Positions 1,740 through 60,680 of a DNA stretch of 64,000 bases are shown here, piece after piece. This stretch comes from Malacoraja senta. Lineage: Eukaryota. Positions within the stretch are counted from its first letter, which is position 1. Each line of letters starts with the position of its first letter. The notes beneath the pieces were generated by a model, which was not told the DNA's origin, did no database searches, and worked only from the letters and a program-made list of their open reading frames with translations. Position numbers and translations under genes: made by a program. Where the stretch lies: contig CM075988.1 in assembly GCA_038087875.1 (NCBI GenBank), forward strand, positions 25,484,001 to 25,548,000, in the 5' to 3' direction.

Positions 1740-2110
1740 TGTGTGCCGAGTGGGACTAAAGTGGCATTATATAGTGAGCAGGAGTGGCTGCACACGAGTG
1801 CAACACACACACACACACACACACAGCAAGCAGCTTCTCCTCACATCCACTGGCTGCCCTCGACCGTCGCTACTGGCAGTCCGGCCTGCAACAGATAGAT
1901 TTTTTCCATCCTGCAGGAGAGAGGGAGGAGCGCTGACAACGACAGCGTGTCATTCAAGCGGCCACACTCTTCAGTAAGTGGCTGATTTATGAATGAGTCG
2001 GAGTGGGGACGGCGCCGCACCCTCGCCCTTTTATGGAGCTGCCCACCTCGGCTCCATCCCCCCCGTCACACATTCCGTGCTCTCGGATTCTTTTATTGGA
2101 ATCCGGGCCC
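1740..2110 (-). promoter_or_regulatory. Probable UBASH3B 5'UTR/promoter (CpG-enriched unique sequence)
   Basis: CpG-containing non-repetitive block directly upstream of the UBASH3B ATG, bounded by CA microsatellites. The TSS cannot be determined from sequence. Confidence 0.5.
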
Positions 2111-2114
2111 ACCT

Positions 2115-3070: not shown

Positions 3071-3170
3071 CGGGGCAGCTCTGAGCCATGGCTACACTGT
3101 GGGATCAGCAACTCACAGACCACAGGTTGACCTGGTAAATGAACAGTAACAAAGACGTCTATCACTGAGG

Positions 3171-3317
3171 CAGAGTGTAGCGTACCCCCTACAGAGTGTA
3201 GCGTACCCCCTACAGAGTGTAGCGTACCCCCTACAGAGTGTAGCGTACCCCCTACAGAGTGTAGCGTACCCCCTACAGAGTGTGGCGTACCCCCTACAGA
3301 GTGTAGCGTACCCCCTA
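3171..3317. repeat. 21-bp minisatellite, 7 copies
   Basis: cagagtgtagcgtacccccta repeated with one substitution. Confidence 0.97.
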
Positions 3318-6300
3318 CTGTCTGAACAAGGGTCTCCGCCCCAAACATCACCCATTCCGTCTGTACCACTCAGTTACTCCAGCATTTTGTGTCTATTTTT
3401 GCTTTAAACCAGCATCTGCAGTTCCTTCCTGCACAATATATCATTTTTAATTTGCTTTATTTTTTGTTGTTATTTAAAGGATCATTATTTTTGTAATGAT
3501 TCAGAGTAATATCAATAGCATTTAAATGTCCCTGGGTATTGGGATATTTAGGAGCTGTAAATAAATGCCACATTGGTTTCGGTAGAAATGAGGCTGTAAA
3601 TAAAATGGATGCGTTTATTTCTTATTCACGTGAAGCCATTTAAAGCTCCTCTACAGTGGTCACCTATTTCCTTCGCTCCATAGATGCTGCCTCACCAGCT
3701 GAGTTTCTCCAGCATTTTTGTCTACCTACAATGGCTGAGATCAGTTTGCTCAGTACAGATAACTAAACAAATGAGCAACCATCCTTAATACAATAGCTCA
3801 ATTGTGAACAGGTAGAGGGAGCAGGCCGCCTCTCATTTCATATTCAACAGCACCTTGAAGGTACTACCTGAGAAAAGAGTACCTTCTAAAACAGCTGTTT
3901 GAAACATGCAAGTTTCCCACTGACTGTTTGGAATTCCTGCCCCATAACTACTCAAAGTGAAGAAGGAGTGTTTGCCATGTCTGTGGAATTCTCTGCCTCA
4001 GAGGACGGTGGAGGCAGGTTCTCTGGATACTTTCATGAGAGAGCTAGATAGGGCTCTTAAAAATAGTGGAGTCAGGGGATATGGGGAGAAGGCAGGAACG
4101 GGGTACTGATTGGGGATGATCAGCCATGATCACATTGAATGGCGGTGCTGGCTCGAAGGGCCGAATGGCCTACTCCTGCACCTGTCTATTGTCTATTGTA
4201 TCAGGATCACATAGAAACCATGGGAAAATGACACCCACCCACCCTGACATGTACTGCCTAGCCTATATGTGAAGGAGTCTCGGGGTCACGTACTCACCCC
4301 ATCGGTCACCGCTAAACCCACAAAACTAGAGTGGAAGCAAGTCATCCCCAATTCCCAGTGATGACCTCAGAAGAAGACTTTTAATGGATCCCAGCGGTCT
4401 TTCCATCAGGACACTAAGTGCTGGGGTTATTCAGCGGGTCAGGCAGCATCTCTAGAGAACATGGATAGGTGACGTTTCGGGTCATGACCCAACTTCAGAC
4501 TTCAAACATCTCAACCCGAAACGTCACCTATCCACGTTCTTCAGAGATGATGCCTGGCCTGCCGAGTCACTCCAGCACTTTGTGTCCTTTTGTACATGAA
4601 CCAGCATCTGCAGCTCCTTGTCCAGCCATGATCACAATGAATGCCTCACCAGCTGAGTTTCTCCAGCATTTTTGTCTACCTACAATGGCTGAGATCAGTT
4701 TGCTTAGTACAAATAACTAAACAAATGAGCAACCATCCTTAATACAATAGCTCGATTGTGAACAGGTAGAGGGAGCAGGCCCTGGCTCGAAGGGCCGAAT
4801 GGCCTCCTCCTGCACCTATTTTCTATGTTTCTATGTTTCTAGCCTTTACGTCAGTGCTGCTTTGTGCTGTGTCATTGAGAGTTGGAATGGGACACGGGAT
4901 AAATGTCAGTCTTATTTATTTGTCTACTGTTCAGTCCAATGGCTCATGCAGCAGTGAAGTCCTTTAATACATTTACTTGTCAGCATTGGTGGATCAACAT
5001 TGCATTAATGATGGCGACTCTGACTCGGTGAGCTCTGCGGTGACTGAGACCAACGTGGGAGCTGCTGACTTTGCTTGGGACGAGGCAGGAAGATCCTCAT
5101 GGGAGGTTAGTGCGATCCTTCTGCCTTTATGGATCTGAGGCTTTGTTTGTTAAAACTTCCTTTTCAGACAGTTCATGTTATTAAGGGATAAGATGATGTG
5201 ATAAGAGCAAAATTAGGCCATTCGGCCCATCAAGTCTACTCCGCCATTCAATTATGGCTGATTTATCTCTCCCTCCTAGCCCCATACTCCTGCCTTCTCC
5301 CCATAATCCCTGACACCCATATAAGGGGAAGTAGCGCAAGGGGCCAAATAGTCGACTGTTTATCAATGACATTATATTCCATAAGCAATTGAAGCAATTG
5401 ACTACTTACTATCTACCTCATTGGTGACCTTCGGACTATCCTTGATCAGACTTTGCCTTGCACTAAACGTTATTTCCTTATCATGTACCTATACACTGTA
5501 AATGGGTCGATTGTAATCATGTATTGTCTTTCCTCTGACTGGATAGCACGCAACAAAAGCATTTCATGACAACAAGCTAAACTAATCTAAGCTGAGCTTC
5601 CCTCTTCCTGAAGCCATTGGGACTGGTGACACCAGACTTGGGATCCCAAAGGCCTTTTACAATTGAGTCACTGCTGCAATTGTGGCCACGTTTACCAGCT
5701 GGGAAAGTTGTCTAACTTGGTGCTAATGTGCTTTCTTTAACTGATCCAGAGTGGAAGCTGAATGCAAAGAGTCAAAAGGAAGTATTTGTCAAGTCGTGCT
5801 GGGGTGCAGAAGGTCAGTGATGTGGATGTTTCAAGAGTGGCGGGCGGCAGCTGTAACCTCCAGATGTAGTGTTTGTGCTCGCTCAGTGTAAATGGACCCA
5901 TTGTATGTGGGGATAACATCAGCTCTGGAGCCAGAGTCATGCCCAGCGCAGAGGAGATGAAGCACTGAAACACTGATATCATCGTATTATCGACAATCTG
6001 CTCTGATACGATACGATAGAACTTTGTCCCAGGAGGGAAATTGATCTCCCAACAGTCATAAAAACACAAAATACAAGAAACATGAAATTAAAGTGATGAG
6101 TGGAAAGGATTGGGGGATGTGCAAAGATTGGGGAGGTAGGGGGGTGGTGGGGGGGGGGGTGGTGGAGGGGGGTAGGGAGGAGAGTCAGTCAGTCTACCCC
6201 ACGACAGAAGGGGGAGGAGTTGTACAGTTTGATAGCCACAGGGAAGAAGGATCTCCTGTGGCGTTCTGTGCTGCATCTGTTGCTGAAGGGCCTTTGCGAT

Positions 6301-7116
6301 GGGATGAAGGGTGAAGGATGGGAGAAGGGATGGAGGGTCTTTGACGCGAAACATTAAGGCTCTTTCTCTTTCCACAGATGCTGCTTGACCCGCTGAGAAT
6401 CTCTGGCATTTTCTGCTTGTGTTTCAGGTTGTGAAGAGGCCCAGTCACCTTAATGTGGAAAGGGGAGCCCTCTGGAGGTGGCGTAGAGAAAGATGTGTAG
6501 AAACAGGAAATGGAGACACTAGAGACGACAGATGCTGGAATCTGGAGCAAAAATGTAATGTCAGGAGGAACTCAGTGGGTGGATCAGTGCTTGTGGATGG
6601 AAAACATTTGTGGACGTTTCACAAAATACCCAGTTCAATTTTTCAAGACATGGACACCCTTCACCGAATTCTTACAAGGATAGTATGGCACAACACAACT
6701 TTGGATTTAAATTCAACTATGGGTTGGGTGAGGTGGGTGGTGGTGGGGGGGGGGGGGGGGCGAGAGGCAGGTATATCTCCACTCTTTTTTTTCTTTTTTT
6801 TTCCTTTCTATTTTTTTTCCTTCTCCTCTCTGACATCTTTATTCACTCTATGGCTACACTACTTTAGTAGTCTAGAGGTCCTATCTTTGACCCTCTCACT
6901 TTTTCTCTCTCTTGTTTTTTCTCTTTTCTTTTTCCCTTTATTTTCAGGTTAAAAAGTTAAAATTGAAGCTGTACATTAACTATAATTTTATATGCCGACT
7001 GTTTTATTCTTGTACAATTGCTTCTAATAAAAATAAAACAAATTAAAAAAAATACCCAGTTCAGTTCACTAGCTTGCACAACTGACAGGCCTCGGTCTCA
7101 CCACTCCAGCATCTAT

Positions 7117-7435
7117 GGGCGGCACAGAGGAGTAGTAGAAGAGTTGCTGCCTTTACAGCGCCAGAGACCCGGGTTCGATCCTGACTACGGCAGCTGTCTG
7201 TATGGAGTTTGTACGTTCTTCCTGTGACCTGCGTGGGTTTTCTCCGGGTGCTCTGGTTTCCTCCCACACTCCAAAGACGAACAGGTTTTTAGATTAATTG
7301 GCTTTGGTAAAAATTGTAAATTGTCCCCAGTGTGTGTAGGATAATGTCAGTGTGCGTGGATCGCTGGTCGGCGCGGAGTCGGTGGGCAGAAGGGCCTGTT
7401 TCCGCTCTGTATCTCGAAACAAAACTAAACTAAAC
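7117..7435 (+). mobile_element. tRNA-derived V-SINE (HE1-like)
   Basis: tRNA-like head with B box gggttcgatcc, V-domain ggagtttgtacgttct...ggtttcctcccac, CR1-like tail ending (aaact)n. Confidence 0.85.
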
Positions 7436-9354
7436 TCAGCGAATTCTTCTCTTCTTTCAGCGGAAACAACGACTCAACCGACAATAGACACAAAAAGATG
7501 GAGTAACTCGCCGGGTCGGGCAGGCAGCAGGTCTGGAGAGAAGGAATAGGTGACGTTTCGGGTCGAGACCCATCTTCAGACCGGTACGTGTTATCCCAAC
7601 ACAAGGCCACCCACTGGAGGTGGGGAGGAGGCTGTTCTTGACTGGGCTGTGTGAGTATGTTGGCAGCGGGCAGAGACTGGGTGATGGTGCCCCTGTCCAC
7701 ACAGCAATGGCAGCTGGGGCTCTGCCTACATCAGGCCAGGTCAGCTAACAGCACTGCCCACTGCCTGCCTGCTGGCAAGGATGTGCTCCAGCAGCAGGGA
7801 AAGGCTGGAGCAGAAGCCCTGGACATCCCTGACCGGCCGAACAACTCATCATACACATGTAGACAAAAGTGCTGGAGAAACTCAGCGGATGTGGCAGCAT
7901 CTATGGAGCAAAGGAAATAGGCAACGTTTCGGGCCGAAACCCTTCTTCAGACTAATCATACACAGTCTGCCTCGTCATAATCCACCGGACACAAAGGACT
8001 GCAGATGCTGCTTAACACACAAAAGGACCAAATGCTGGAGTAATTCAGCGGGACAGGCAGCATCTGTATGGAAAAAGGATGGGTGATGTTTCGGGTCGGA
8101 ACCCTACTTCACCTACTCCTTTTCTCCAGCGATGTTGCCTGACCCGCTGAGTTACTCCAGCATTATGTCTCTATCTTCGGTATAATCCAGCATCTGCAAT
8201 TCCTTCGGACACACAAACTGCAGATGCTGGTTAATAGAATGAAGGACAGAGTGCTGGAGTAACTCAGCAGGTCAAGCAGCATCTCAGGTGACCATGGTGT
8301 GAGGAAGGGTCTCGACCTGAAACATCACCTATCAGGGGATATGGGGAGAAGGCAGGAACGGGGTACTGATTGTGGATGATCAGCCATGATCATATTGAAT
8401 GGTGGTGCTGGCTCAATGGGCCGAATGGCCTACTCCAGCACCTATTGTCTATTGTCCTCCAGAGATGCTGCCTGACCCGCTGCTTTACTCCAGTACTCTG
8501 TGTCCTGCTCGTCATAATCCTCTGGTTACAATTGGCTCTAGATTTTTATGATTCAAGAGAGTTTATTGTCATGTGTCCCTGATAGGACAATGAAATTCTT
8601 GCTTTGCTTCAGCACAACAGAACATAGTAGGTATTGACTACAGAACAGATCAGCGTGTCCATATACCATTATATAAATATATACACACATGGATAAATAA
8701 ACTGATAAAGTGCAAATAGCAGATAATGGGCTATTAATGTTCAGAGTTTTGTCCGAGCCAAGTTTAATAGCCTGATGGCTGTGGGGAAGTAGCTATTCCT
8801 GAACCTGATCGTTGCAGTCTTCAGGCTCCTGTACCTTCTACCTGAAGGTAGCAGGGAGATGAGTGTGTGCCCAGGATGGTGTGGGTCCTTTTTGAGGCCA
8901 CGTCACGAGCTCCAGCCAGAGCCCCCGACAATGTTTCTCTGTTCCTTTCCTCCTCTTTACTTCTGTCCCCACCCCAGCCTTCATGCGCCTCTTCAAACTG
9001 GATCACTTTGACAACCTCCCAATGTGAGCTGGCATCAAATGTTGTTTGTTCTTGTCCATGGGGAGCCCTTTATGATGATAAAGGTGCTGCTTAAATATGT
9101 TTTGATCGATTGTTTTCAGTGCCACATGTGTTCCTGTTCCTCCCCCTTTCCCTGGGGGTTTTCTTGGATTGTGTGGCATTTTAACACTGGATTTTGGTTT
9201 TTCAATAAAACATTTAAACTTCCAAAGGGAAAGAAATCTTACAAAACTGAAGCTCCATCTGCATCTCGCAGACGTTCAAAAGCACCTTACATCTAATCAC
9301 CTGTCAGTCTACTACCTGCCAGGCTGTATCCTGCCTCTCCTCTCTTCCAGCTTT

Positions 9355-9850
9355 ATAGACAATAGGTGCAGGAGTAGGCCATTCGGCCCTTCGAGTCAGC
9401 ACTGCCATCCACTGTGATCATGGCTGATCATCCCCAATCAGTACCCCGTTCCTGCCTTCTCACCATATCCCCTGACTTTAAGAGCTCTATCTAACTCTCT
9501 CTTGAAAGCATCCAGAGAATTGGCCTCCACCGCCCTCTGAGGCAGAGAATTCCACAGATTCACAACTCTCTGGGTGAAATTTTTTTTCCTCATCTCCGAT
9601 CTAAATGGCCTACCCCTTATTCTTAAACTGTGGCCCCTGGTTCTGGACTCCCCCAACATCGGGAACATGTTTCCTGCCTCTAGCGTGTCTAATCCCTTAA
9701 TAATCTTATATGTTTCAATAAGATGCCCTCTCATCCTTCTGAATTCCAAAGTGTACAAGCCCAGCTGTTCCATTCTATCAGCATATGACAGACCCACCAT
9801 CCTGAAAATGAACCTCGTGAACCTACGCTGCACTCCCTCAATAGCAACTC
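9355..9850 (-). mobile_element. CR1-type (HER1-like) LINE 3' fragment
   Basis: IEGVQRRFTR...RRMRGHLIETYKI...TRGHSLRI...QRVVNLWNSLP...FKRELD. Confidence 0.9.
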
Positions 9851-10454
9851 CCTTTCTTCCCTCCACCCCCCCCCCCCATACACACACACACAATCATTCT
9901 GAAGGGTCCCAACCCAAAATGTCACTGATCCATGTCTCTCCAGAGATACTGCCTGACCTGCTGAGTTACTCCAGCATCTTGTGTCTCTCTTTGGCAATTT
10001 ATCTAATTTGAAATATAGCATCTGCCCCTAGTCCTGGTGCAGGCAGTGTCAGAAGGGGTAACACGTTGCAGTCTCTGGAGTGAGATATCATGCCCACCAC
10101 ACAGAGAAATGGAAATAAACACAAAATGCTGGAGTAACTCAGCGGGACAAGCGGCATCTCTGGAGAGAAGGAATGGGTGATGTTTGGGGTTTGAGCTAAG
10201 TCTGAAGAAGGGTCTCGACCCGAAACATCACCCATTCCTTCTATCCAGAGATGCTGCCTGACTCGCTGAGTTACTACAAAAAATTATGAAGTAGGGTCTC
10301 AACCCAAAACCATCACCCATTCCTTTTATCCAGAAATCCTGCCTGTCCCCGCTGAGTTACTCCAACATTTTCTGTCTATCTTCAGAGTAAACCAGCATCT
10401 GCAGTTCTTTCCTGCACATCTGCAGTTCTTTCCTGCTCTATGACGACATTGACA

Positions 10455-10752
10455 CAGAGATACAGCCCAGAAACAGGCCCTTCAGCCCACCGAGTCCAAC
10501 CCGACCAGCAGTCCCCACACACTAACAGTATCCTCCACACACTAGCTACAATTTCCAATTTTACCAAACCAATTAGCCTATGGACCTGTACATATTTGGA
10601 GTGTGGAAGAAAACCAGAGCACCCGGAGAAAACCTACGCAGGTCACGGGGAGAATGTACAACCGCTATTCAGACTGCACCCGTAGTCAGGATCGAACCCG
10701 GGTCTCTGCCGCTGTGAGGCAGCAACTCTACCGCTGTGCCACCGTGCCGCCC
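10455..10752 (-). mobile_element. V-SINE (HE1-like)
   Basis: Reverse complement of the same SINE consensus. Confidence 0.85.
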
Positions 10753-13149: not shown

Positions 13150-13360
13150 TGCTTTGAAAACTGCAAAACCTCCACCTCCCCATCCAGATCTGAGGATTGG
13201 GTTGGACTGCATCCAATGTGACCTCCTTTACATTGGTGAGACCTAGCGTAGACTCGGCGACTGTTTTACTAAACACTTGCGCTCACTCTGCCAAGACCTA
13301 CTGGATCTCCGAATTGCTAGTAATTTTAACTCCCTTTTACCCATTCCTCTACTGACCCAG
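13150..13360 (+). mobile_element. Degenerate Penelope-like GIY-YIG fragment
   Basis: ctcctttacattggtgagacctagcgtagactcggcgactgtttt is homologous to the GIY-YIG portion at 55520-55570. Confidence 0.7.
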
Positions 13361-14329
13361 GTTATTGAGGGATGCCGCCTGGAACGCTAAGTTACTCCAG
13401 CACTTTGTGTCTTTTTTTTGTGTCCTGCGGAATGGTCAGTGACCAGAAACATTGACTGGATTCTCTTTCCGCAGATGCTGGTTAACTGGTTGAGTTCTTC
13501 CGGCATTTCTGTTTTTTTAATTTTTAGCTCGGGATCAAAACCTAAGGCTAGAAATTCCACCTTCATTTGCTTCACGATTGCAGATAGCAGACTGTAATCA
13601 CAGACACTATTGGGCGGGTCTGTCCAAGTTCCTGTTTTGCATCCTCCATGTTATGCAATAATACACCTGGAAGCCATTATATGTACAGTCACACCTAGAT
13701 TATACACATCTTGGCATTGTGGTAGTCACAGAGCAGGGGCGGAAAACCCGGGGGGGGAGGGGGCAGAAGGGACAGGTCCCCTCCATGTTTTGATAGCGAG
13801 TTCCGCTCTTGTCACAAAGAGCTGGAGTAACTCAGCGGGTCAGGCAGCATCTCTGGAGGAAAGGAGTGGGTGATGTTTTGGGTCGGGACCCTTCTTCATA
13901 CCACAGATCAGTTTGTTTGGCATCATGAATCGTGTGAATATGACCTTGGGGCATGCTCACCAAATTATTAGAGGGCTAGGGCCTGAATCATCACTTTCAT
14001 TAAATGGAGCCCAAATTTATTGGGACAAAGTGCAATGTACCTGACCGTTCCCAGATAAGCTCTGACAAGAACTTTGTCTTCGTAATCACTGCTGACCAGT
14101 CTCTGGGACCTGTTTAAGAAGGAACTGCAGATGCTGGAAAAATCGAAGGTAGACAAAAATGTTGGAGAAACTCAGCGGGTGAGGCAGCATCTATGGAGCG
14201 AAGGAATAGGTGACCTTTTTCGGGCCGAGACCCTTCTTCGGTCTCTGGGACCCGATAAACCTCATAAAAAGAAGTGGCGAGTGTGATGACTGAGGGTTTA
14301 ATTTTCCAAGATTCCCTGGATTTAAAAGG

Positions 14330-15950
14330 TTCCATTAGATTGGTACATAGCAAATGTCCTTTCTTCGTTCGAACATGGAGGGGAGAGAGGAAGGATGCAT
14401 CTGCTAACCACTTAATCTGTCACAGGGACAGGTTAGGGGCTATTATTAATGACGTTGAAGCAGAGCGTGAAGAAAAAATTCCAGGCCATTGGGTTTTTTT
14501 GAGAAGGAAATCATGTCTGATCAGTGGTAATGTGTAAGCCTGGGAGGAATGGGCAACAGGAAATTAACAGCAGGTATAAATGGGTCTTTTTTCTAGTTGG
14601 TGAGATTCAGGTAGTAGTGTACCGCAGGGCATGTTGTTGTGACCACAATGCTGCACAATGCACGTAAGTGTCTTGACCACACGCACAAAAGGGACGTATG
14701 TTCAATTTGTTGATGGCACAAGGACAAGAAATAAAGTAGGTTGTGAGGGAGTTACAAGTGGATTTGGATAGATTAAGTGTGGGGGGGGGGGGGGGGGGAA
14801 GGATGGCAAATGGCATGTAATAATATGGAAAGATTACCATTTTGGCAAGAAAATGTGAAAAGGAAATATATTTTCTAAATGGTGAGAGGTTGTAGATGTC
14901 TGAGAGAGAGGAATATTTGGTGCAAAGGAAGAAAGGCCAGGGGCTGGTACAATAAGTAATTAGGAAATCTAATAGATTTTGTTGTTTACTTTGAGGGAAC
15001 TTGGAACAAAGTTAGGGAACATGCTTCAGTTATAGTGGGCATTGGTGAGACCATATCTGGAGGATTGTGTACTGTAGATAGATGCAAAATGCTGAAGTAA
15101 CTCAGCGGGACAGGCAGCATCTCTGGAGAGAAGGAATGGGTGACGTTTTGGGTCGAGACCCTTCTTCAGATTGTGTACTGTGTATTGATCTCTTTATTCA
15201 GGGAGTTATGTTATGGTACTGCCATCTGTCTGGGGAACATTTGCCAGACTAATATCTGGATTGGTTAGGTTGTCCTATGAAGTAAGGTTGGACAAGCACC
15301 TTGTCCATTGGAGAGTGAGAGGTGACTTGATTTACAGAGATGACATCCTGAGGAACTCTGCCAGGGTAGATGCGAAGAAGATGTTTCCGTTTGTGGGAGA
15401 ATCAATAACTAGGGATTGCTGCATAGAAAAGACATCAGTTGAATAGACAATAGACAATAGGTGCAGGAGTAGGCCATTCGGCCCTTCGAGCCAGCACCGC
15501 CATTCAATGTGATCATGGCTGATCATCCCCAATCAGTACCCCGTTCCTGCCTTCTCCCCATATCCCCTGACTCCGCAATTTTTAAGAGCCCAATCCAGCT
15601 CTCTCTTGAAAGTATCCAGAGAACCCGCCTCCACCACCCTCTGAGGCAGAGAATTCCACAGACTCACAACTCTCTGTGAGAAAAGGTGTTTCCTCGTCTC
15701 CGTTCTAAATGGCTTGCCCCTTATTCTTAAACTGTGGCCCCTGGTTCTGAAGACAGGGATGAGGCAACATTCATTTCTCAGTGGGCAGTAAGCCTTTGGA
15801 TTTCTGTTCCTAAAAGGAATCAGAATCTTTAAATATTTTTTTGGTATAGATACTTAGCTAGCAAAAGATCACCAGGTCCCATGGGAAGTGGAGCTGAGAT
15901 GGCGGTGGCAATCTTATTGAGGATTGAGGGGCCATGTGACCTATTTCTGA
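14330..15950 (+). mobile_element. Old degenerate CR1 RT region with nested younger inserts (Penelope-type unit 15076-15168; inverted CR1 3' end about 15440-15750)
   Basis: Decayed CR1 ORF2 motifs (ggcattggtgagaccatatctggag, gagaggtgacttgat) interrupted by the inserts. Confidence 0.7.
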
Positions 15951-21078: not shown

Positions 21079-21489
21079 GTAAGATATGAAATATTTCAGA
21101 TATTCAAATCTTAATGAGAATCTATTCATTAATCCATCCCATAACATTGCTCAGAAATATAATTTCCACATCCCTATTTAAAGTTTATTTTTAGTACTAT
21201 TTCACTGTCGTCGCTGAGCCTTTAAATTTATTCTAATTGTTTGGAAATAAATTCCATTTTTACATTGGTTTTACCTACCTTGAGATGTCTCAAATCTCTT
21301 CACATTAAACCTGAAGCAAAATTAGGGGTTAACATGGAGGAGGCACAGCAGCCAGATGGACCTCTGAGAGCTCCCGCAGACAACATTGTGGGTATAAATG
21401 GCCAGATACTCTTTGATAACATGTATCCAGGTCAGGTATAAATGTTGATCAAATAAAATGGACAGACATCTGGACGAAACAGAAGAAGA

Positions 21490-22018
21490 CACAGAGGGCT
21501 GGAGTAACTCAGCGGGTCAGGCAGCATCTGTGGAGAACATGGATAGGTGACGTTTCACAGAGTGCTGGAGTAACTCAGCGGGTCAGGCAGCATCTGTGGA
21601 GAACATGGATAGGTGACGTTTCACAGAGTGCTGGAGTAACTCAGCGGGTCAGAGCATTTGTAGAGAACATGGATAGGTGACGTTTCACAAAGTGCTGGAG
21701 TAACTCAGCGGGTCAGGCAGCATCTGTAGAGAACATGGATAGGTGACGTTTCACAAAGTGCTGGAGTAACTCAGCGGGTCAGGCAGCATCTGTGGAGAAC
21801 ATGATAGGTGACGTTTCACAGAGTGCTATCGGAGTAACTCAGCGGGTCAGGCAGCATCTGTGGAGAACATGCATAGGTAACGTTTCACAAAGTGCTGGAG
21901 TAACTCAGCGGGTCAGGCAGCATCTGTGGAGACTGGATAGGTGACGTTTCACAAAGTGCTGGAGTAACTCAGCGGGTCAGCAGCATTTGTTAGAGGACAT
22001 GGAAAGGCGATGTTTTGG
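21490..22018. repeat. 66-bp tandem array (about 8 copies) derived from the Penelope-type terminal repeat
   Basis: Unit gagtgctggagtaactcagcgggtcaggcagcatctgtggagaacatggataggtgacgtttcaca, head-to-tail with no spacers. Confidence 0.95.
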
Positions 22019-22767
22019 GAGGTGTGGGAGGTGGGGCTGGATGTAAAATATAACATGTTTCATATATGAAGTTCTGGAGAGATGTCCATGAAATACACTA
22101 TCTAAAACAATAAACAATTATCAATGGTTTCCATGATTGGAAGGTGAGAATAATGGAGAAATAATAAAATATTATTTTTAGTGCAGTTACTAGTTGATTT
22201 CGATGAACATTCGGAGAATGATGGGCAAATCCATTGTTTTGTTTGAGATAGAATACAACGGGACCTCTGTGACCTACAACTTAAAGCTTCTGTGAACTGA
22301 CGAGAATATCAGCAGGAAAGATGGAAAGACAAGAGGAGAGATATCTTTGGGAAACTGAGTTAGATTTGAAATAAGACAATTAGATGGTGGAGGATGAGGA
22401 TGGTGTAAGAGTTGGAGAGATGTCAAGCCACACGGTTTACAGTTGCTGAGGTAGCCAACTCTAGTTGGGCATATTCCCAGGGGTTTCATGGTGTGCCCTG
22501 CTGTCCTCTCCTCTTGATCCCATCATTGCCCTTTGGGCCTATTATCAGTCGATTGCTCTTCATACCTGACCTGATAATTGTCAGCTGGCAGTCATTTATT
22601 TTATTACTAAAACAAAATCTTCAATTACTTTAAAAACCCAACTCAGTTCTGTTTAATGCGCCTTGTTTTCCCGCTGTCCTGTGTGCCACTGCAGAGAAGT
22701 CCTATTGATCAATGTTTACTACCTAGAGATGCAAGTGCAATCAAGACGTTCAATGTGTCGCCTGTGG

Positions 22768-27045: not shown

Positions 27046-27863
27046 TAATAAAAACCAGAAGGAATAAACCCAGAAAATAACCTGTGGGTTGTTAAAGCTC
27101 CCTTTCAGTCTAAGTGGTTGGGGAAATCCCTCACGCTTGTTCGCAGGTGACCAGCTGTGTGATGTTCTGAGGTGGTGTTGACTGGAGCGTGATCCTAGAG
27201 TGAAACTAACATGACAGCATCATCTGCCTCAAATGCAATGTTCTGACAGATGATTTTTTGTACACATGCCATTGCTATCTCCAAAATGTCATCTGGTTAA
27301 TTCTCAGGGTGGCAGGACAGACATATGAGGAAAGAATGGGTCGACTGGGCCTGTATTCACTGGAATTTAAAAGGATGAAAGGGTTTCTTATAGAAACATA
27401 TAACATTCTTAAAGGATTGGACAGGCTAGATGTTGGAAAAATGTACCCCATGTTGGGGGAGTCCAAAACCAGGGGGTCACAGTTTAAGAATAAGGGGTAG
27501 GCCATTTAGGACTGAGATGAGGAAAAACTTTTTCAACAGAGAGTAGTGAATGTGTGGAATTCTCTGCCACAGAAGGCAGTGGAGGCCGATTCCTTGGAGT
27601 TAGAATTAGCTCTTAGGGCTAACGGAATCAAGGGATATGGGGAAAAAGCAGGAACGGGGTACTGATTTTGGATGATCAGCCATGATCATACTGAATGGCG
27701 GTGCTGTCTCAAAGGGCCGAATGGCCGACTCCTGCACCTATTTTCTATGTTTCTGTGTTTCTATGTGAGAATTTACAAGGTTGCCACACAGACCAGTTTG
27801 CACCCTCATGGGTGGCAGTGATTGGCACAATTTATTTCCCTTATTTACAAAGTGAAGGATCAT

Positions 27864-27956
27864 CTGAAGAAGGGTTTCGGCCCGAAACGTTACCTATTTC
27901 CTTCGCTCCATAGATGCTGCTGCACCCGCTGAGTTTCTCCAGCACTTTTGTGTACC
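27864..27956 (+). mobile_element. Penelope-type terminal-repeat mini-element with hammerhead-like core (representative of more than 25 copies or fragments)
   Basis: CTGAAGA-A-GGGTTTCGGCCC-GAAAC-GTT...; target duplication gaaggatcat at 27854-27863 and 27957-27966. Confidence 0.75.
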
Positions 27957-28567
27957 GAAGGATCATGCATGCTAGTTTTATAAACAATCTTATTATTTGT
28001 TCTAACAGCTTCAACGATTTAATTATATACACTTCCCTCACCCATAGCAATACCCCAATAAGTCCGTACCATGTAATTAGAATCTAAATTATACACAGTA
28101 GCTGACGCATCACTCACTTGTATTAAATCACCAAATAGTTGGCCTGTTTAAAGAATTTTCACACACCAACTTATAGCGGTGTATAAAATCATTGGAGGGA
28201 TAGATTGAGTAGATGCATAGAGTCTCTTGCCCAGAGTAGGTGAATCGAGGACGACAGGACATAAATTTATGGTGAAGGGGAAAAGATTTAATAGGAATCT
28301 GAGGGGTAATTTTTTCACACAAAGGGTGGTGGGTGTTTGGAACCAGCTGCCAGAGGAGGTTGTTGAGGCAGGGACTATCCCAACATTTACGAAAGTTAGG
28401 TACATGGATAGGACAGGTTTGGAGGGATATGGGCCTGACACGGGCAGGTGGGACTAGGGTAGCTGGGACATGTTGGCCAGTGTGGGCAAGTTGGGACGAG
28501 GGGCCTGTTTCCATGTTGTATCACTCTATGACTAATTAATGCCACACATTTCAATTCTTTTTTGTAG

Positions 28568-28719: not shown

Positions 28720-30054
28720 GTGGGTGCACTCCCTCGCACACGTTCCGTTCAGTTTCATTTGACACTTTCTAAACTTTAATCTCACTATCAACTATGCTAC
28801 TGATCTGAAGAAGGGTCTCGACCCGAAACGTTGCCTATTTCCTTCGCTCCATAGATGCTGCCTCACCCGCTGAGTTTCCCCAGCAATTTTGTCTTCCACG
28901 AGGTCAAACTCGCTTTAACTGAAGATAAAGTTTATATTTTGGTTTATATCAACCTGCATCCCCTTCTCCCCACTCCCACCATTCTGCCAGTTATCATTTA
29001 TCTATGGTCCTGCAGTTGTTGATCTCCGTAACCTCTACAGTGCTAGGACTTCCTCTCTGTAGTGTTGCCAATAGCATTGTATTCAGACCTTCATCTGTGA
29101 CTTAGTAAAGTTTATTATCAATATTTCTGGTATGCCCTCTCTGCCTTTGTATGTTGTAGCTCACCCACATGCCACCTTGACCTATTTATCTGCCTGTATT
29201 GCTATCTTCATCCATCTCCTTTGCCTCAGTTCAATATCCTATTATAACCTTTGTTCCTCCTTACTTCCTAGAGCGTGTAATAGAGCTTGTTTTGTTTTAT
29301 TATTTATCTCGGCGACTGTTGGAGCGGGCAACAAGTATTCTTTATTGAACTTGGCATACTCCCAACAAACCACAATCAGTACAATCAGTTGTATAAAGTA
29401 CTGTACACTTGCGCATGAATACATTACAGTGGTAGCTTTCCAAATCTTTTTACATCCAAATTGTTCACCCAGGTCACCTAATGTAAAGTTCTCCAGTCTA
29501 TGGACTTGTGCTTATTTAAAGAGTGGGGATATCGGTCCATTTTTAACATCCTGTGAGTTACGATCTACACTTTGAAAGCCAAGTTGTTGCAATACGCTAT
29601 TATTTTCCCTCGCACTCACTCCGTTCAGTTTCATTTGTCACTTTCCAAACATTAATCTCACTATCAACTATGCTACTGATCTGAACAAGGGTCTCGATCC
29701 GAAACGTTGCCTATTTCCTTCGCTCCATAGATGCTGCCTCACCCGCTGAGTTTCTCCAGCATTTTTGTCTACCTTCGATTTTTTCCAGCATCTGCAGTTC
29801 CTTCTTGAACATGCTGCTGATCTTTATCATCTGCAAACTTTCTCAATGATGGCTCTTGCATTTACGTCAAAATCATTCATATATTAGGGACATGACCACT
29901 GCATAACATTTCCAGTCACCAACATATCCTTCGAGTATAAGACGTGGGTATTTCCAAGTGCTTCAATATCTTTCTATAATACAATGGGGTTCCTATAAAA
30001 TGTAACTTTACATTCCTGTTTACTATCCTTCAAATCTACCATAGCACTCTCCAT

Positions 30055-33425: not shown

Positions 33426-34669
33426 TCAATTTCATATCAAGAAATGCAGAGGCAGCAGTATTAACCACACCCGAGTCGAGCATCTACCGTTGTGGTTAGA
33501 TTGTCAGCTTTGTTTCTCATCCCATCAACTTGACTCGTTCCCAGAGTACAGCATTCCTCTTTCACAAATACCATGTTAGAGTCACAGTCATAAAGGGATA
33601 GAGTGTGGAAACAGGCCCTTCTTGCCTACAGCCCAACTTGCCTACACCGGCCAATATGTCCCAGCTTCACTCGTCCCACCTGCCTGCGCTTGGTCCATAT
33701 TCCTCCAAACCTGTCCTATCCATATACCTGTCTAACTGCTTCTTAAATGTTGGGATAGTCCCTGCCTCAACAACCTTCTCTGGCAGCTTGTTCCATACAT
33801 CCACCACCCTTTATGTGAAAAAAACATGTTCTTAGACCATGCGTTGTTTAAGAAGGAACTGCAGATGCTGGAAAATCAGTCTGAAGAAGGGTTTCAACCC
33901 GAAATTTTACCTATTACCTTCGGTCCACAGATGCTGCCTCACCCGCTGAGTTTCTCCAGCATTTTTGTCTAGCTTCTTAGACCATGAAATCACTTTGAAT
34001 CTCCATACTCTCTGATTAATGAGGACAGAATTTCTACGCTTTCCAATTTCTACATGATTTTAAATTCAATATCTTCAGCTTTCTCTGCTTTGAGGAGGAT
34101 TACCTGGCCTGGATAGAGAGGATGTCTCCACTAGTGGGAGAGTCTAGGATCAGAGGTGATAGTCTCAAAATAAAACTAAGTTCCTTCAGGAAGGAGATGA
34201 GGAGGAATTTCTTTAGTCAGAGGGTGATGAATCTCTTGAATTCATTGCCACAGAAGGCTACGAAAACCAAGTCGATTGATATTTTTAAGGCAGAGAGATA
34301 GATTATTGATTAGTACGGGTGTCAGGGGTTATGGGGAGAATGGGGTTAATAGGGGAAGATAGACCAGGCACGATTGAATAGCGGAGTAGACATGATGGGC
34401 CAAATGGCCTAATTCTGCTCCTATCACTGATAAACTTATCTTCACGAGACCATCCATCCCTTTCTTTGGACCAATTGAATCAATCTAGCTGAACTTTTAC
34501 CTCATTCTCCCCGAAGCCCCAAAATTGGATACAATACACCAGGTCTTTAGTTGCTGCAAAAACTTTCCAAATATATTGAAATCGAATTGTGGATGCCAAC
34601 TGGTGCAACACCTGGTGAAGAATAATGCATTTTCAATTACATGTTATTTTAGCTTTTCACTGTTTGCTT

Positions 34670-38543: not shown

Positions 38544-39161
38544 CTGAAAGGAAACAGACAGATTAAAAAAAAAAAAATAGGTTAACCACCATGGGATATA
38601 AGCAGACATTGAGGTTAGACACAAAATACTGGAGTAACTCAGTGGGACAGACTGCATCTCTGGATAGAAGGAATGGTTGACGTTTCGGGTCGGGACCCTT
38701 CTTCAGAGCTTGCACAGTGTTCAAATCAATGGTGAGTGCAGATATTTTTCTGTGGTATGTGAACCAGCCTGTTTTCCCAAACTTTATTTTAGGATATTGA
38801 AATAATGGGTCATAGTTCCAGTCTATTGTGGTGTCGATACTGTGATGTTAGAATCAGATTATTTTCAACCAGTAAGTTAATTAGAGAATATTTTGAGAAT
38901 CTTCATACTATTTGGTAAGCCAGAAATAAAAATCAAAAGAGTACAGGAGCAACAGTTTAGTAACATGTTTGGAAAGATTTTGGGTTCTGAATAAAACGCA
39001 GACCAGAAAGAACAAGCACAATATTAAAAGGATGATCAGGGGTGTAATAATTATGGAAGACTTGAACCTTTGTGTATATTGGGAGATCAAATTGGGATGA
39101 ATAGCCACAAAAAACAAATTCACAGAGTGCATTAAAGTACAAGATTCAAAAAAGGCCTTAC

Positions 39162-52700: not shown

Positions 52701-54739
52701 TTTAAAAGACTGAATAGGTTGAAACCTTTCATAAAGATAAATCTGATTATTTTTTGGGGGGGGCGGGGGTTGGTTTGCCAAGTTGATGGTAGTCTTTAAT
52801 GTAATGAGGGTAGATGTGGAGAATATCTTCACTTATGGGGGATAAATAACTGGAGGTCAATGCAGAAATATATAATACCCATCACCTACCCACCTGCTGA
52901 AAAGGGAAGTCTGATTTGTTGACGTCAAATGTGGTCATTCTGGCACACCATAGTACACCGTTCTTAAAGAATTGACGTATTGAATTCTCTGGATTTACCA
53001 ATTTAAGATTTTGTACCTAGGTGCAGACTGCAATTGAAACTCGTACTCTACCAGGCGACGGGGATAGTGTTTTGCATTGGGAATTGACATTGCAATGCAT
53101 TTCACTGTTAAATATTTCATTGTTAACTGTCATGACTGGTAGATTTTTAAAATCGCATGTGTCTTGATAAAATTATGGCTATGGTATACAGTATCTAATC
53201 TTTTGACAACCCATTTTCATTTCTTCTGGGGGAATAGAGGCCAAGCTAGGCTAGCTAGTAAAGAGGGATTGGTTTAGGTGGGTTTAGAAGTATCCTTTGT
53301 GCCCCTCGATACAAAGTAGCTGCAACCCTTCTGTGTACGTAGTTTTTGGATGAGCCATATGAAAGACACAGATTGAATGGAACTTATCCACATGTGTAAG
53401 GAAGTAGTGATACATTTTGTAGTATTTGCTCTGCAGCTAGAATGCAGAGATTGTGATTAAATAGCAAAGTATGCACAAACTTGTCCCCATATGAAAGAAA
53501 TTATCTAAAAGGGTATTAGTTGAAGGATAAATGTTGAGTGGAGGTTAAATTAAATGAATGGTGATTTTCTCGTTTGAGAGCTGGACTGTGACTTGATCCC
53601 CTAAACGCTTGGCTTCATGTATGCAGTCACTGCGATGTAGAGATAGTGCTTTGAAATGATGCACTTTGTATTCTTTAAACATTGAAACAAAATCTTTAAT
53701 TTTATATCACAGGCCGTCTCCAGGTTCCACTCCTGAGAACTGTTTGTAAGTTGGAAATGAACTGATTTAATGAATGAAGGATCATTCATCGCTCAGCTGT
53801 TGTATAATCACATTCGGTCACATCTGATGTAAATATACCATTGCTTGATCTTTTTGTTTCGTTTGGTGAAGGATAAAGAAATCTTCTCAAACTACATTTT
53901 GGGTTGACCCACAGCCTAAATAGTGTTTTTCTAGGGAGAGTTCTAGAATTGTATTGCTTTTATGTCATCGTGTTGAAGTGCTTTTTCTGACATTATCTCT
54001 GAATGAATGATTACAAAATTCATAAATAACCACCCAAAATAATTGAGATACAGAAAAAAATAAATCAAATTTTTTCAACTTGTGTCTTGATACAGGCACA
54101 GATGACTTGGTTTTGCATTCTAGAAATTTCCAACATAGACCATTTTCTAGGAATGCGACATTCCAGTTCCTTGTGGACTTGAGTGTACGGGACAAATGTA
54201 ATAGTAGTGATGTGTGTGACTAGGCAAGTCTTAAATTAATTAAGGGTTGGTTGTGTCATCACATGTTCTTCTGCCTAAACAATAGCACTCCCCAGGCATG
54301 GGAGAAGTTGAATTCTACACGTGATCTGATCATGAACCTAAATATTCTGAAAGAGCCAATGATATTTCATCTTCAAAAATGATATCCATGATATTTAACA
54401 CAGAAAACTTTTCATTGTTAACTAATTTTTCTCCAATATAATTGATTTTGTAACAGTTGGACGTTAACTCTGTTATAGTTATGTAACATCTGATGCTTGA
54501 TAAATTGACTTCATATTTGTGGAAGTGAAAATATCACTGTCAATATCCCTCCTAATCCAACTTGAATTACAATACCTGATATTGTTTTTCTGGAAGGAGT
54601 TTGACTTTTCTATACTTGTCTATCGGGGGAGGGGAAAATTGAACGTAGTCGGTGTGATTGAGTGGTGCCCAATTTGGCAATTAAACATTGCCCTCATTAT
54701 TCTGTTGGGTGGAGTGTGGTGAAAGCAGCATGGCAGTCA

Positions 54740-55760
54740 TACCGCCTCAACTTCTCCACTCCCCTTTCTCACTCTACCCTCTCCCCCCCTGAACGTACAG
54801 CCCTTCACTCGCTCTGCAACAACCCAGACTAGGTGATCAAACCTGCTGACAAGGGACATGCCGTGGTAGTCTGGCGAGCTGATCTCTACAAGGCCGAGGC
54901 CACGCGCCAACTCTCAGACACCTCCTCCTACTTATCCTTGGACCATGACCCCACAGACGAGCACCAGGCCACTATCTCTAGCACCATCACTGACTTCATC
55001 ACTTCCAGCTCCCTGCCCTCCCAAGCCTCCAACCTCATCGTTCCCCAGCCCCGCACGGCCCGATTTTACCTTCTCCCCAAAATCCACAAACCAGACTGTC
55101 CTGGCAGACCCATTGTTTCTGCCTGTTCGTGTCCTACCGAACTTATTTCCACATACCTCGACTCCATCCTATCCCCCCTGGTTAAATCTCTCCCTACCTA
55201 TGTTCAAGACACCTCACACGCTCTTCGTCTACTCCATGACTTCCGTTTTCCAGGCCCCCATTCCCTTATCTTCACCATGGACGTCCAGTCACTACACCTC
55301 CATCCCCCACCAGGAGGGTCTTAAAGCCCTTTGTTTCTTCCTCGACCGCAGAACAAACCAATCCCCGTCTACTGATACACTCCTCCGCTGGTCCTTACCC
55401 GTAACAACTTTTCGTTTGACTCCATTCAAGGACCCAAGCAGTCTTTCCAGGTGCGGCAGAGGTTCACCTGCACCGCCCCCAACCTCATCTATTGCATCCG
55501 CTGCTCTAGGTGTCAGCTGCTCTGTATCGGTGAGACCAAGCATAGGCTTGGCGATCGCTTCGCTCAGTTCGCAATAACTAACCTGATCTCCCGGTGGCTC
55601 AGCACTTCAACCCCCCCTCCCATTCCGAATCCGACCTTTCTGTCCTGGGCCTCCATGGCCAGAGTGAGGCCCACAGCAAATTGGAGGAGCAGCACCTCAT
55701 ATTTCGCCTGGGCAGTTTACACCCCAGCGGTATGAACATTGACTTCTTTAATTTCAGTTA
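54740..55760 (+). mobile_element. Penelope-like retroelement fragment (RT plus GIY-YIG), internally deleted and frameshifted
   Basis: IKPADKG..VVVW, LPKIHK..PGRPIVS and TMDVQSL RT motifs, then a jump near 55420 to RFTCT..NLIYCIRCSRC..LCIGETK.RLGDRF (GIY-YIG with Cys motif). Confidence 0.9.
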
Positions 55761-56245
55761 GTCCCGGCTTTCTCCTCCCCTTCCCAGCTCTCCCTCAGGT
55801 CCAATACGCTTCATCAGATCTGAGCCTCAATTATACATTTTCTGTTTACCTACTTTACTATTAAGGGCACAGGTGTTTTGCTGTTAATGTATAATTGCTG
55901 GATTTACAAAGTCATAGATGAATCCAAGAGAAGGGAATGGGAAGATATGGTCCATGGTTTGCGAAATTTGGAGTATAAATTTATTTATGGTATATGCAGG
56001 GTAAAAATGTATCCTTGCAATCAAATTGGCTAGGATTCACAATCATTGTTACATTATAGTCGTTGTATTGAGTGAGAATTGGGTTGCCGGTATATGATGC
56101 TATTGTGCAGACTCCATGCAGAATAGCTAGTTTAATCATGATGCTGTAAACAGCAAGGTCTGGGAAATTATTCTCTTTTTTTGTGGGATTTTATTTATAA
56201 CTACAGCTCTTGTTTATTATGTCAATTTCTTTGAGCCAGTTCTAA

Positions 56246-56809: not shown

Positions 56810-57815
56810 TAAAAGTGCCTTGCCTGTGAAATTTTCAATCAGGAACTTTTTTTACAACAAATATATCTGGATATTTGCTTTATTGTACATTTTCAAACTG
56901 CTGCAATGCAAACGTTTCTGTTTACTTGTGTACACTTTCAGTTACTGGTTATATGCCAGAATATCCCTTGGGCGAGTGAAAGTGCTTCTACAATAGCACA
57001 GAAGACCATGGCTGGAGATGGTCTCTCTTGCTGTTAGTTTGCTGAGGATTGGAAATTCTATGTTCAAGAAGGATCTGCAGATGCTGGAAAATCGAAGGTA
57101 GACAAAATTGCTGGAGAAACTCAGCGGGTGCAGCAGCATCTATGGAGTGAAGGAAATAGGTAACGTTTCGGGCCGAAACGTTGCCTATTTCCTTCGCTCC
57201 ATAGATGCTGCTGCACCCGCTGAGTTTCTCCAGCAATTCTGTCCACATTGGAAATTCTATATTCTTTCTCTTGACCAATTAATGCATTTAACATTGTCTT
57301 ATTAATATTAAATGGTTTTAAAACAACTTTGGGAATAGAACTGCTGAATATTCTTTTTTTTTAAAATCCAGAATTTGTTAGTTTGGTATCGGTGTGGATT
57401 TTACAAGCACCTTATCCTGTTTCTCTTGAATAGATATAACCTGGAAACTTAATCCGAGATTTAAGATTGTGTGGTGGCAACTTTGATACTTTAACATTAT
57501 AGAATAGTTATGTTCATTATTGTACACCAGGATATCTTGCAAAAATACAGCACCACATTAGTGTTAAAGAACAAATGAAATTGACAATCCACAGTGAACT
57601 CCTTGTTCCAAGGGAAAAAAGTATTTATCGCATCTGTTGCGAGGAATTTTAGGTTATAATGCTTCCACCAGTCATGTCCCAGCCTTCCTCTTTTCCCTTG
57701 ATGTATTTTGTATCCTATATCTGAGTTGCAGAATTATTTTTTTTTAAATACCACTGTACTGAGTTTACTCTGTAAATTTGCCCCTATTGTGTTTTTGCTT
57801 GCCCCCACACTCTAG

Positions 57816-59872: not shown

Positions 59873-59961
59873 GTAACCAAGATAAAAAGAATCCTGATGG
59901 TTCAGTCTAACTTTTAAAACTGAGTAGGAGGAGATTAGATATCAAACTCTTCTGAATCAAA

Positions 59962-60680
59962 GATAGGCATAAAATGTTAGAGTAACTCAGCGGGTCAGGC
60001 AGCATCCCTGGAGAACATCGATAGGTGAAGTTCTGGGTTGGAATATTTCTTCAGGCTGATTGTAGGAGGGGGTGGGAAAGAAAGAATAGAGAGGAGGGGT
60101 TGGACAGAGCCCAACCGGTAATAGTTGAACACAGGCGAGGGGGTTATTTGATCGGCAGATTGTTGGAAAATGGCAGCGATGTAGAGGTGTGAGGCTGAAA
60201 AAATAAAGAGTTGTGAATTGGGTATCCATTCTAAATGACACAAGAGGAGGAGGGAAGGGGGGGGGGGGAGGAGAGAAAGGGGAGGAAGAAGAAGACTATT
60301 GTGGGTTAGTTAAAATCAGAAAGTTCAATGTTCATACTGTTAGGTTGTAAGCTACCAAAGTTGAATACAAGGTGTTGTTGGTCCAGTTTGTATGTGGCCT
60401 CACGCTAGCTATGGAGGAGGCCCAGGACAGAAAGGTCAGTGTGGGAATGGGAATTAAAATGCTTAGCAACCAAGAGTTCCAGTAGGCCGGGTGCAAGTGT
60501 TTGGCAAAGCGGTCACCAAGTTTATCAGCCTCGTTGATATACAGGAGCCCACAACGGGAACACTGGTTGCAGTAGGTGAGGTTAGAGGAGGTGCACGTGA
60601 ATCTCTGTGTCACCTGGAAGGGCTGCTGGGGTCCCTGATTGGAGGTGAGGGAGAGGGTATAGGGACAGGTGTTACATCTC
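59962..60680 (-). mobile_element. Penelope-like 3' fragment: GIY-YIG endonuclease, UTR and terminal repeat
   Basis: Minus-strand RCNTCPY...QRFTCTSSNLTYC.QCSRCGLLYI.E, followed downstream by a degenerate ctgaagaa...acccagaacttcacctat...gatgctgcctgacccgctgagttactc unit. Confidence 0.85.

What the first reader, a model, noticed from the sequence alone, without database searches (positions are those of the whole stretch)
7549..7582. Hammerhead-ribozyme-like core in the most abundant short repeat of the window
Seen: minus strand GGT-CTGAAGA-T-GGGTCTCGACCC-GAAAC-GTC-ACC. This gives CUGANGA, one extra nucleotide, stem II (GGGT/ACCC), GAAA, a palindromic ACGT in place of stem III, a GUC triplet and a 3-bp stem I (GGT/ACC). 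Near-intact cores also occur at 10202(+), 27864(+), 28805(+) and about 7920-7950, 10915-10945, 11990-12020 and 38676-38706(-). Stem II differs between subfamilies (gggtctcgaccc versus gggtttcggccc) while staying paired. Established: Penelope-like elements carry minimal type-I hammerheads with a vestigial palindromic stem III thought to cleave as dimers, and an extra residue after A9 is tolerated in a natural viroid hammerhead. Inference: this genome is densely seeded with ribozyme-derived motifs, several sense-oriented in introns (IL18 27864, 28805; SDHD about 38690). Stem I is poor in most copies, so activity is unproven.
Basis: partly seen in the sequence, partly recalled or inferred. Interest (0 to 1): 0.75.

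Follow-up and report, generated by a model that had tools for sequence, protein, structure and literature searches.

The report
Penelope retroelement stubs with hammerhead cores
The motif is real and matches the known minimal hammerhead ribozyme of Penelope-like retrotransposons; it starts a roughly 100-base repeat covering 7% of this fish-like DNA, most copies likely broken leftovers of insertion rather than working ribozymes.

Summary
The motif at 7549-7582(-) is there as described and is not chance (15 matches vs 1.3 expected). It is the 5' end of a ~95-bp repeat (~130 with an optional tail): 51 copies, 6.9% of the window.

The repeat has Penelope-like (PLE) insertion hallmarks: 10-14-bp target-site duplications, 7 head-to-head pairs, and a ~33-bp tail that is sometimes inverted. 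One copy starts ~250 bp after a PLE endonuclease fragment; a second fragment codes an RT 72-79% identical to shark and ray proteins. The core fits the 2014 PLE minimal-hammerhead consensus.

Against active host ribozymes: only 6 of 24 scorable copies keep core, stem II and ACGT; the family stem I is 2 bp; the focal 3-bp stem I is a minority form; CpG decay hits G12; stem II does not covary (U-A to U-G only).

One odd feature: copies begin sharply 0-4 nt before core C3, not at the cleavage site, here and in four public runs.

Verdict: new member of a known kind; cleavage untested.

The parts
7549..7582 (-). Minimal type-I hammerhead motif; predicted cleavage between 7552 and 7551
   Evidence: matches the published PLE consensus
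7474..7581 (-). Whole focal copy of the ~95-bp repeat (hammerhead plus ~65 bp downstream), no tail, no clear TSD
7851..7952 (-). Second-subfamily copy (UUCG loop, U-G in stem II, GUU triplet) with a 14-bp TSD (1 mismatch) ending at C3
8000..8333 (.). Two head-to-head inverted pairs (8111-/8093+ joined inside stem II; 8291-/8297+), with tails
10109..10420 (.). Inverted pair 10191-/10200+ followed by a direct tandem copy 10286+ with tail
15070..15170 (-). Solo copy with a 13-bp exact TSD ending at C3; the copy used for laying public contigs
21478..22019 (-). 8-unit, 66-bp tandem array of the repeat that starts at G12 and lacks CUGANGA and stem II
27863..27965 (+). Solo copy with a 10-bp exact TSD ending just before C3; upstream of an IL-1/18-family exon
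29679..29811 (+). Copy with 3' tail and a 13-bp TSD (1 mismatch); 28803+ is a local duplicate sharing its upstream flank
33829..33986 (+). Copy with its ~33-bp tail inverted at the 5' end, the whole unit inside a 13-bp exact TSD
38605..38707 (-). Copy in sense orientation between two SDHD (CybS) exons
54698..55800 (+). Decayed, internally deleted PLE ORF: RT part (to ~55423) fused to the GIY-YIG endonuclease part (55412-55746) and the start of the 3' UTR; no hammerhead copy follows
57048..57260 (.). Head-to-head pair joined through the stem II palindrome, one arm with tail, inside a 14-bp exact TSD
59951..60679 (-). Decayed PLE 3' end: CxxC linker remnant and endonuclease (60679-60309), pyrimidine-rich spacer ending in CAG, then a decayed repeat copy (60056-59951)
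13202..13522 (+). Short endonuclease remnant (13202-13333) followed on the same strand by a core-less repeat piece (13354-13421) and an older-type copy (13425-13522)

Best explanation
The motif is the first 34 bases of a ~95-bp repeat that is likely the 5'-truncated terminal repeat (solo pLTR) of a Penelope-like retrotransposon, probably Neptune-type, and it likely inherits that element's minimal hammerhead while most copies would no longer cleave. Mechanism: the element's GIY-YIG endonuclease would nick both strands 10-14 bp apart (TSDs shown). Reverse transcription would start at one of two sites ~65 or ~100 nt 3' of C17 (tail-less and tailed ends shown; initiation inferred from the anole element). 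It would stop just after the hammerhead core and attach by 1-3 nt of microhomology (boundary shown; cause inferred). Fold-back or two-ended priming would give the head-to-head pairs. In source elements the hammerhead would work only as a dimer through the ACGU palindrome, probably with protein help (inferred from literature). Inserted copies then decay neutrally (CpG loss shown).
For: Same-strand order endonuclease, spacer, repeat at 60679-59951(-), and in deleted form at 13202-13421(+): 2 of 3 endonuclease fragments. The RT fragment's five best hits are shark and ray proteins at 71-79% identity, and RVT_1 is common among the 120 listed. 17 of 17 long relatives with a YxGxT motif carry a CX4CxxC linker, and the window fragment keeps the CxxC; Craig 2021 (PMC8557442, passages) ties such a linker to Neptune. 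TSD score >=10 in 5 of 25 copies against 0.5% of 600 mismatched controls, plus 13- and 14-bp TSDs round two complex insertions. 7 head-to-head pairs. Of 15 tail hits, 10 are at 3' ends and 2 inverted at 5' ends. These are the hallmarks in PMC3846280 and PMC8557442 (passages). In metagenome loci found with the core pattern, 18 of 127 matches have a same-strand PLE ORF hit upstream, 16 of them reaching the C-terminus 76-690 nt before the core, and 0 have one downstream. There stem I covaries (11 of 17 arm types pair >=3 bp against 2.0 shuffled; 0 of 500 shuffles reach the covariation score). Decay: G12 kept in 26 of 36 and G16.2 in 22 of 36 copies; 6 of 24 intact.
Against: No intact PLE with this repeat at both ends is in the window, and no genome was held. 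The third ORF fragment (55746+) is not followed by the repeat. The best link (60056) is a decayed copy, and a same-strand copy within 300 bp would occur by chance at roughly 0.1 per fragment (my estimate from copy density). The metagenome loci belong to other families: the window profile hits only 3 of 121, over the core only. Only 1 of 7 inverted pairs has a clear TSD. Two sharp ends fit a separately transcribed unit as well as truncation. Short stem I does not exclude activity: 2-bp stems occur in published Culex and Drosophila PLE hammerheads. No tree was built for the Neptune label.
Confidence: 0.8

Rival explanations
1. The ~95/130-nt unit is a non-autonomous SINE-like or retrozyme-like element with its own RNA, whose 5' end is set by transcription or splicing just before the core, and which the PLE protein mobilises in trans. 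It is PLE-derived but no longer a by-product of truncation.
For: Shared sequence ends at -3/-4 from C3 in the window, whereas invertebrate-type loci stay alike 15-30 nt further. Loose ends in four public runs share only four letters there. In the two longer copies the core follows a pyrimidine tract and CAG, like a splice acceptor, and the D. virilis PLE intron ends at helix I (PMC4209133, results). Subfamilies with diagnostic columns exist.
Against: No shared upstream exon or promoter is seen. Many copies keep the AG itself (A at -3 in 14 of 25, G at -2 in 15 of 25), so they are not spliced products. The only long tandem array lacks the core, unlike retrozymes as defined in the 2026 preprint.
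Confidence: 0.12
2. Many dispersed copies are working ribozymes that cut host pre-mRNA (monomer, or dimer between neighbouring copies) and are kept for that effect.
For: 6 of 24 copies have core, stem II and ACGU; the focal copy adds a 3-bp stem I. One copy is sense in an SDHD intron. Same-strand neighbours 370 bp apart exist (7579, 7950). The core is somewhat better kept than the downstream part.
Against: In context the focal core strand is predicted to pair with the downstream pyrimidine block (probability 0.84; stem II 0.05). The hammerhead-compatible fold costs 4.7-15.7 kcal/mol in the six best copies against a median of 5.0 in 115 metagenome matches. G12 decays at CpG rates. No strand skew. 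Published monomers are inactive and dimers weak (PMC4209133); 1 of 9 Xenopus dimers cleaved (2026 preprint, part 3).
Confidence: 0.06
3. The hammerhead likeness is a coincidence amplified with an unrelated repeat.
For: One ancestral motif explains all copies, so 15 against 1.3 shows repetition, not function. No Rfam hit; no fold signal; no two-sided change in stem II between the two main subfamilies.
Against: All 11 core positions, the extra base after A9, G10.1-C11.1, the palindrome and the NUH triplet match the published PLE consensus. The motif sits where PLE hammerheads sit, after the endonuclease.
Confidence: 0.02

Closest known systems
Minimal type-I hammerheads (min-HHR) in pLTRs of metazoan Penelope-like elements (Cervera and De la Pena 2014, PMC4209133; main text parts 1-2 and supplement 2 part 2 read)
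   Same: CUGANGA plus one extra base, G10.1-C11.1, GAAA-C-G-U-H with no loop III, short stem I, U-rich upstream, mostly solo copies, some close pairs on opposite strands.
   Different: No cartilaginous fish among the rows I saw, nor in a term search of 2 supplement files (file 1 and figures not seen). Stem II is 4 bp and the family stem I is 2 bp, at the short end. Density here (51 copies in 64 kb) is far above the ~4,000-9,000 per genome reported for coelacanth and Xenopus.
Anole Poseidon element PAc (Frangieh 2024, PMC11167929; parts 1-2 read)
   Same: Two RT start sites bracketing a tail about 110-120 nt after the start of stem II; both strands nicked and extended; hammerhead inactive without protein.
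   Different: The ORF relatives here carry a Neptune-type linker. No match of the repeat's translation to PLE N-termini. I saw no report there of 5' ends fixed at the core.
Non-LTR retrozymes (bioRxiv 10.64898/2026.07.22.740005; parts 1 and 3 and passages read)
   Same: PLE-pLTR-derived, non-coding, hammerhead-bearing; reported in the one chondrichthyan sampled.
   Different: Defined as tandem units each with a full hammerhead (mean 363 bp in that fish). Here copies are ~95-bp monomers or inverted pairs, and the tandem array has lost the 5' half of the core.
Adineta vaga Penelope solo and inverted pLTRs (PMC3846280; passages read)
   Same: 8-10-bp TSDs, head-to-head pLTRs with palindromes at the junction, optional 31-bp tail, solo pLTRs.
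   Different: pLTRs there are about 200 bp and rare.

Membership tests
PLE minimal hammerhead | Core CUGANGA / GAAA / NUH intact | tested here: met
   Focal copy and family majority; 6 of 24 scorable copies fully intact
PLE minimal hammerhead | One base between A9 and G10.1; G10.1-C11.1 pair | tested here: met
PLE minimal hammerhead | Palindromic 15.1-16.1 with no or minimal helix III | tested here: met
   ACGU in 11 of 24 copies, the rest mostly CpG-decayed
PLE minimal hammerhead | Helix I closing the core | tested here: inconclusive
   3 bp in the focal copy and 4 others, 2 or fewer in 19 of 24; 2-bp cases are published
PLE minimal hammerhead | Covariation of helices among families | tested here: inconclusive
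   Strong for stem I in unrelated metagenome families; only one-sided change in the window's main subfamilies; my pattern fixed three stem II pairs
PLE minimal hammerhead | Self-cleavage at C17, as a dimer | not testable with these tools
   No assay; no raw RNA reads listed
Penelope-like element pLTR | Lies 3' of an RT plus GIY-YIG ORF on the same strand | tested here: met
   2 of 3 endonuclease fragments in the window; all decayed
Penelope-like element pLTR | Also flanks the ORF at its 5' side (partial tandem) | tested here: inconclusive
   No full-length element in the window; no genome held
Penelope-like element pLTR | Optional 30-40-bp tail, inverted 5'-truncated partner, short TSD | tested here: met
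Neptune clade | CX2-5CxxC linker before the endonuclease | tested here: met
   17 of 17 long relatives with the endonuclease motif (5 of 22 lacked the motif and were set aside); CxxC remnant in the window
Neptune clade | RT phylogeny | not tested
   No labelled reference sequences at hand
Non-LTR retrozyme | Tandem units each with a complete hammerhead | tested here: not met
   The 8-unit array lacks CUGANGA; in the one direct pair 10200/10286 both cores are damaged
Rfam hammerhead families | Reaches a family score | tested here: not met
   0 hits at gathering score; no hammerhead among 16 weak hits in 7000-13500

The most novel reading that the evidence does not exclude
The hammerhead, or a splice acceptor abutting it, sets where reverse transcription ends. 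In sharks and rays this turns a Penelope terminal repeat into a precise ~95-base mobile unit, perhaps the commonest repeat in these genomes, and gives PLE hammerheads a role in insertion that needs no self-cleavage.
Probability: 0.25. Interest if true: 0.62.

Novelty: new member of a known kind. Interest (0 to 1): 0.32.

Why it matters
PLE hammerheads are known since 2014, so the motif is not a surprise. What the role of these hammerheads is remains open (PMC8557442 says it is unclear; PMC11167929 found cleavage dispensable for insertion in vitro). This family offers a very large natural set of junctions: 176,146 to 221,160 contigs lay on one copy in three public runs (contigs, not copies). 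The fixed 5' boundary just before C3 can be tested genome-wide and in the existing anole assay. It would also mean a sizeable share of intronic DNA in these fishes is ribozyme-derived.

Tried and rejected
Rfam: nothing relevant.

No whole genome held. The core pattern gave 0 hits in viral contigs and a family-specific pattern 0 in prokaryote genomes. The metagenome scan read 31 of 64 parts and returned other families only.

No RNA holder listed and no raw reads, so expression and cleavage ends were not examined; run X18 is probably DNA.

Hypothesis that self-cleavage sets the 5' end: rejected, since at most 2 of 43 non-array copies start at the cleavage site and 23 start at or before C3.

Hypothesis that the repeat encodes the PLE N-terminus as in the anole: no match among 120 relatives.

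My first label 'Poseidon' (notebook, first look-up) was dropped after the linker test.

A 13-bp match round the 8111/8093 pair is tail sequence, not a TSD, and was not counted.

Pfam missed the PLE fragments and found no gene near the focal copy (146 ORFs given, mostly from 422-22790, out of 512 listed); a PDB search with the ORF at 23256 found nothing.

Earlier scan notes: nothing by sequence or words.

Literature searches 'Penelope+shark+repeat+hammerhead', 'hammerhead ribozyme+skate' and 'Penelope+elasmobranch+genome+transposable' listed no paper on this family by title or abstract; Repbase and Dfam could not be searched and may well hold it. Lunse et al. 2017 on PLE hammerhead dimers was not held (seen only as a citation in PMC6765202). 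Supplement file 1 of PMC4209133 and the preprint's supplements were not seen and may list a chondrichthyan family.

Full report
Observation. The 34 bases at 7549-7582(-) read as described. That excess shows a repeat, not a function. Rfam finds no hammerhead and the 34-mer folds no better than shuffles (z +0.76), as expected for a motif without helix III.

The repeat. An iterated profile finds 51 copies (23 plus, 28 minus), 8 of them in one 66-bp tandem array, covering 4,400 bp or 6.9% of the window. The hammerhead is its 5' end. About 65 bp follow C17, and some copies add a ~33-bp tail: of 15 tail hits, 10 are at 3' ends, 2 are inverted at the 5' end of a copy and 3 are unassigned. Seven pairs are head to head; in five one arm starts at the core, and two are joined inside the stem II palindrome. 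Five of 25 scorable copies have TSD scores of 10 or more against 0.5% of 600 mismatched controls. Two complex insertions sit inside exact 13- and 14-bp duplications; six of the seven pairs show none.

Link to a Penelope-like element. The window holds three decayed ORF fragments. The RT part at 54836-55288(+) has 2,727 relatives; the five best are shark and ray proteins at 71-79% identity, and many of the 120 listed carry RVT_1, some also GIY-YIG. The host is therefore probably a cartilaginous fish (inference). The endonuclease fragment at 60679-60309(-) runs through a pyrimidine-rich spacer into a decayed copy at 60056. The remnant at 13202-13333(+) is followed by a core-less piece. The third fragment ends in its 3' UTR with no copy. 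A CX4CxxC linker precedes the endonuclease in 17 of 17 long relatives with that motif (5 of 22 set aside), and a CxxC remains in the window, which points to the Neptune clade by Craig 2021 (PMC8557442, passages). No tree was built.

Is the motif a hammerhead? It matches each feature of the published PLE consensus, including the extra base after A9, G10.1-C11.1, the palindrome and GUC or GUU (PMC4209133). An outside test came from a metagenome scan with the core pattern: 127 matches in 121 loci, none of the window's family. In these, 83 of 123 scorable matches with sequence left free by the pattern form 3-5 bp of stem I and 2 more form 6 bp; 11 of 17 arm types pair at 3 bp or more against 2.0 when shuffled. 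On 19 chosen rows (15 of 34 locus types plus 4 window copies) 84% of cells pair and no shuffle of 500 reaches the covariation score; the rows were picked by me, and three stem II pairs were fixed by the pattern. Twenty of 121 loci have a PLE ORF hit; 18 matches have it upstream on the same strand and none downstream. So this architecture is a PLE hammerhead in its usual place.

Are the copies active? Probably few. Six of 24 scorable copies keep core, stem II and ACGU, and only the focal one of these has a 3-bp stem I; the family majority pairs 2 bp and then mismatches. G12 survives in 26 of 36 copies and G16.2 in 22 of 36, both CpG sites; laid contigs list differences at these CpG sites and none at C3-A9 or A13-A15.1, though the tool did not count everything. 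Non-CpG core columns change less than downstream ones (11 of 264 against 143 of 1583, p=0.008), which fits selection on source elements but is inflated by end trimming; the excess of subfamily-diagnostic columns downstream is not significant (1 of 10 against 18 of 57, p=0.26). With its 3' neighbour the focal core is predicted to pair with the downstream pyrimidine block (0.84), and the hammerhead-compatible fold costs 10 kcal/mol; the six best copies cost 4.7-15.7 against a median 5.0 in 115 metagenome matches. Against this reading, 2-bp stems I are published and the anole hammerhead needs protein (PMC11167929), so source elements may well cleave.

The odd feature. 23 of 43 non-array copies start at or before C3 and at most 2 at the cleavage site; shared sequence falls to background by -4, whereas three metagenome families stay alike for 15-30 nt upstream. 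All five clear TSDs end at C3+0 to +2, within a 13-position search range. In four public runs of four organisms, the largest 5' loose-end class (477 to 3,193 records) shares four letters and then has 33-38% agreement, and the best-supported joints to the opposite strand start there (the copy's own homology also ends there, so only the loose-end consensus is informative). Candidate causes, none tested: the hammerhead fold, a splice acceptor (pyrimidine tract and CAG in the longer copies; the D. virilis intron ends at helix I), or the near-palindrome spanning this boundary in the cDNA.

Abundance and host genes. 176,146, 192,952 and 221,160 contigs lay on one 95-bp copy in three runs; these are contigs and not copy numbers, and X1 may be the source sample. 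One copy is sense in an SDHD intron. Three lie on the strand of, and upstream of, an IL-1/18-family exon; their intronic status is read from splice-like signals only. Strand counts are even.

Novelty. The kind is known (PMC4209133; reviews PMC6155905 and PMC6765202, passages; PMC8969392, passages). A 2026 preprint reports tandem retrozymes in one chondrichthyan. Three searches listed no paper on this family, but repeat databases were not available. Verdict: new member of a known kind, interest 0.32; the fixed 5' boundary is the part worth following.

Noticed in passing
window 21478-22019(-): 8-unit 66-bp minisatellite made from the repeat, each unit starting at G12 and ending at the usual 3' end; it lacks the 5' half of the core.
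   Followed up: partly
window 4500, 8111, 10286: Several copies share U in place of A9 (4 of 31 at that column), a core-breaking change that looks like a subfamily, so some source copies may have spread without a working core.
   Followed up: no
window 13425-13522(+), 6332-6425(+), 6620-6562(-), 30968-31046(+): Older, divergent relatives; 13425 has a different 3-bp stem I and a changed but paired stem II, hinting at covariation between old and young families.
   Followed up: partly
window 28730-28897 and 29606-29825: Local duplication of a copy together with about 70 bp of upstream flank.
   Followed up: no
window 29669-29815(+) and other tailed copies: The tail carries a 9-nt inverted match to the middle of the repeat, able to close a long stem over the 3' half; a possible protein-binding or RT-start signal. 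Whole-copy folds are not better than shuffles.
   Followed up: partly
window 54698-55746(+): PLE ORF with a large internal deletion joining the RT directly to the endonuclease.
   Followed up: partly
window 7117-7435, 10456-10755, 22769-23080; 9355-9814, 15442-15749, 27295-27768: Two other repeat families (5-17 overlapping hits); they look like an elasmobranch SINE and a CR1/L2-type LINE 3' end (labels recalled, not tested).
   Followed up: no
window 60989-61297(+): Exon-like frame resembling coatomer delta (ARCN1; recalled, no Pfam hit); the PLE remnant at 59951-60679 would be antisense in its intron.
   Followed up: no
window 900-3130, 45450-46770, 47200-49600: Very long CA and TA-rich microsatellite tracts.
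   Followed up: no
window 56245-56810: GC-rich element with about 53-bp terminal inverted repeats, MITE-like.
   Followed up: no
L008, L021, L052, L064, L102: Metagenome loci with two hammerhead matches on opposite strands, the same inverted arrangement in unrelated PLE families.
   Followed up: partly
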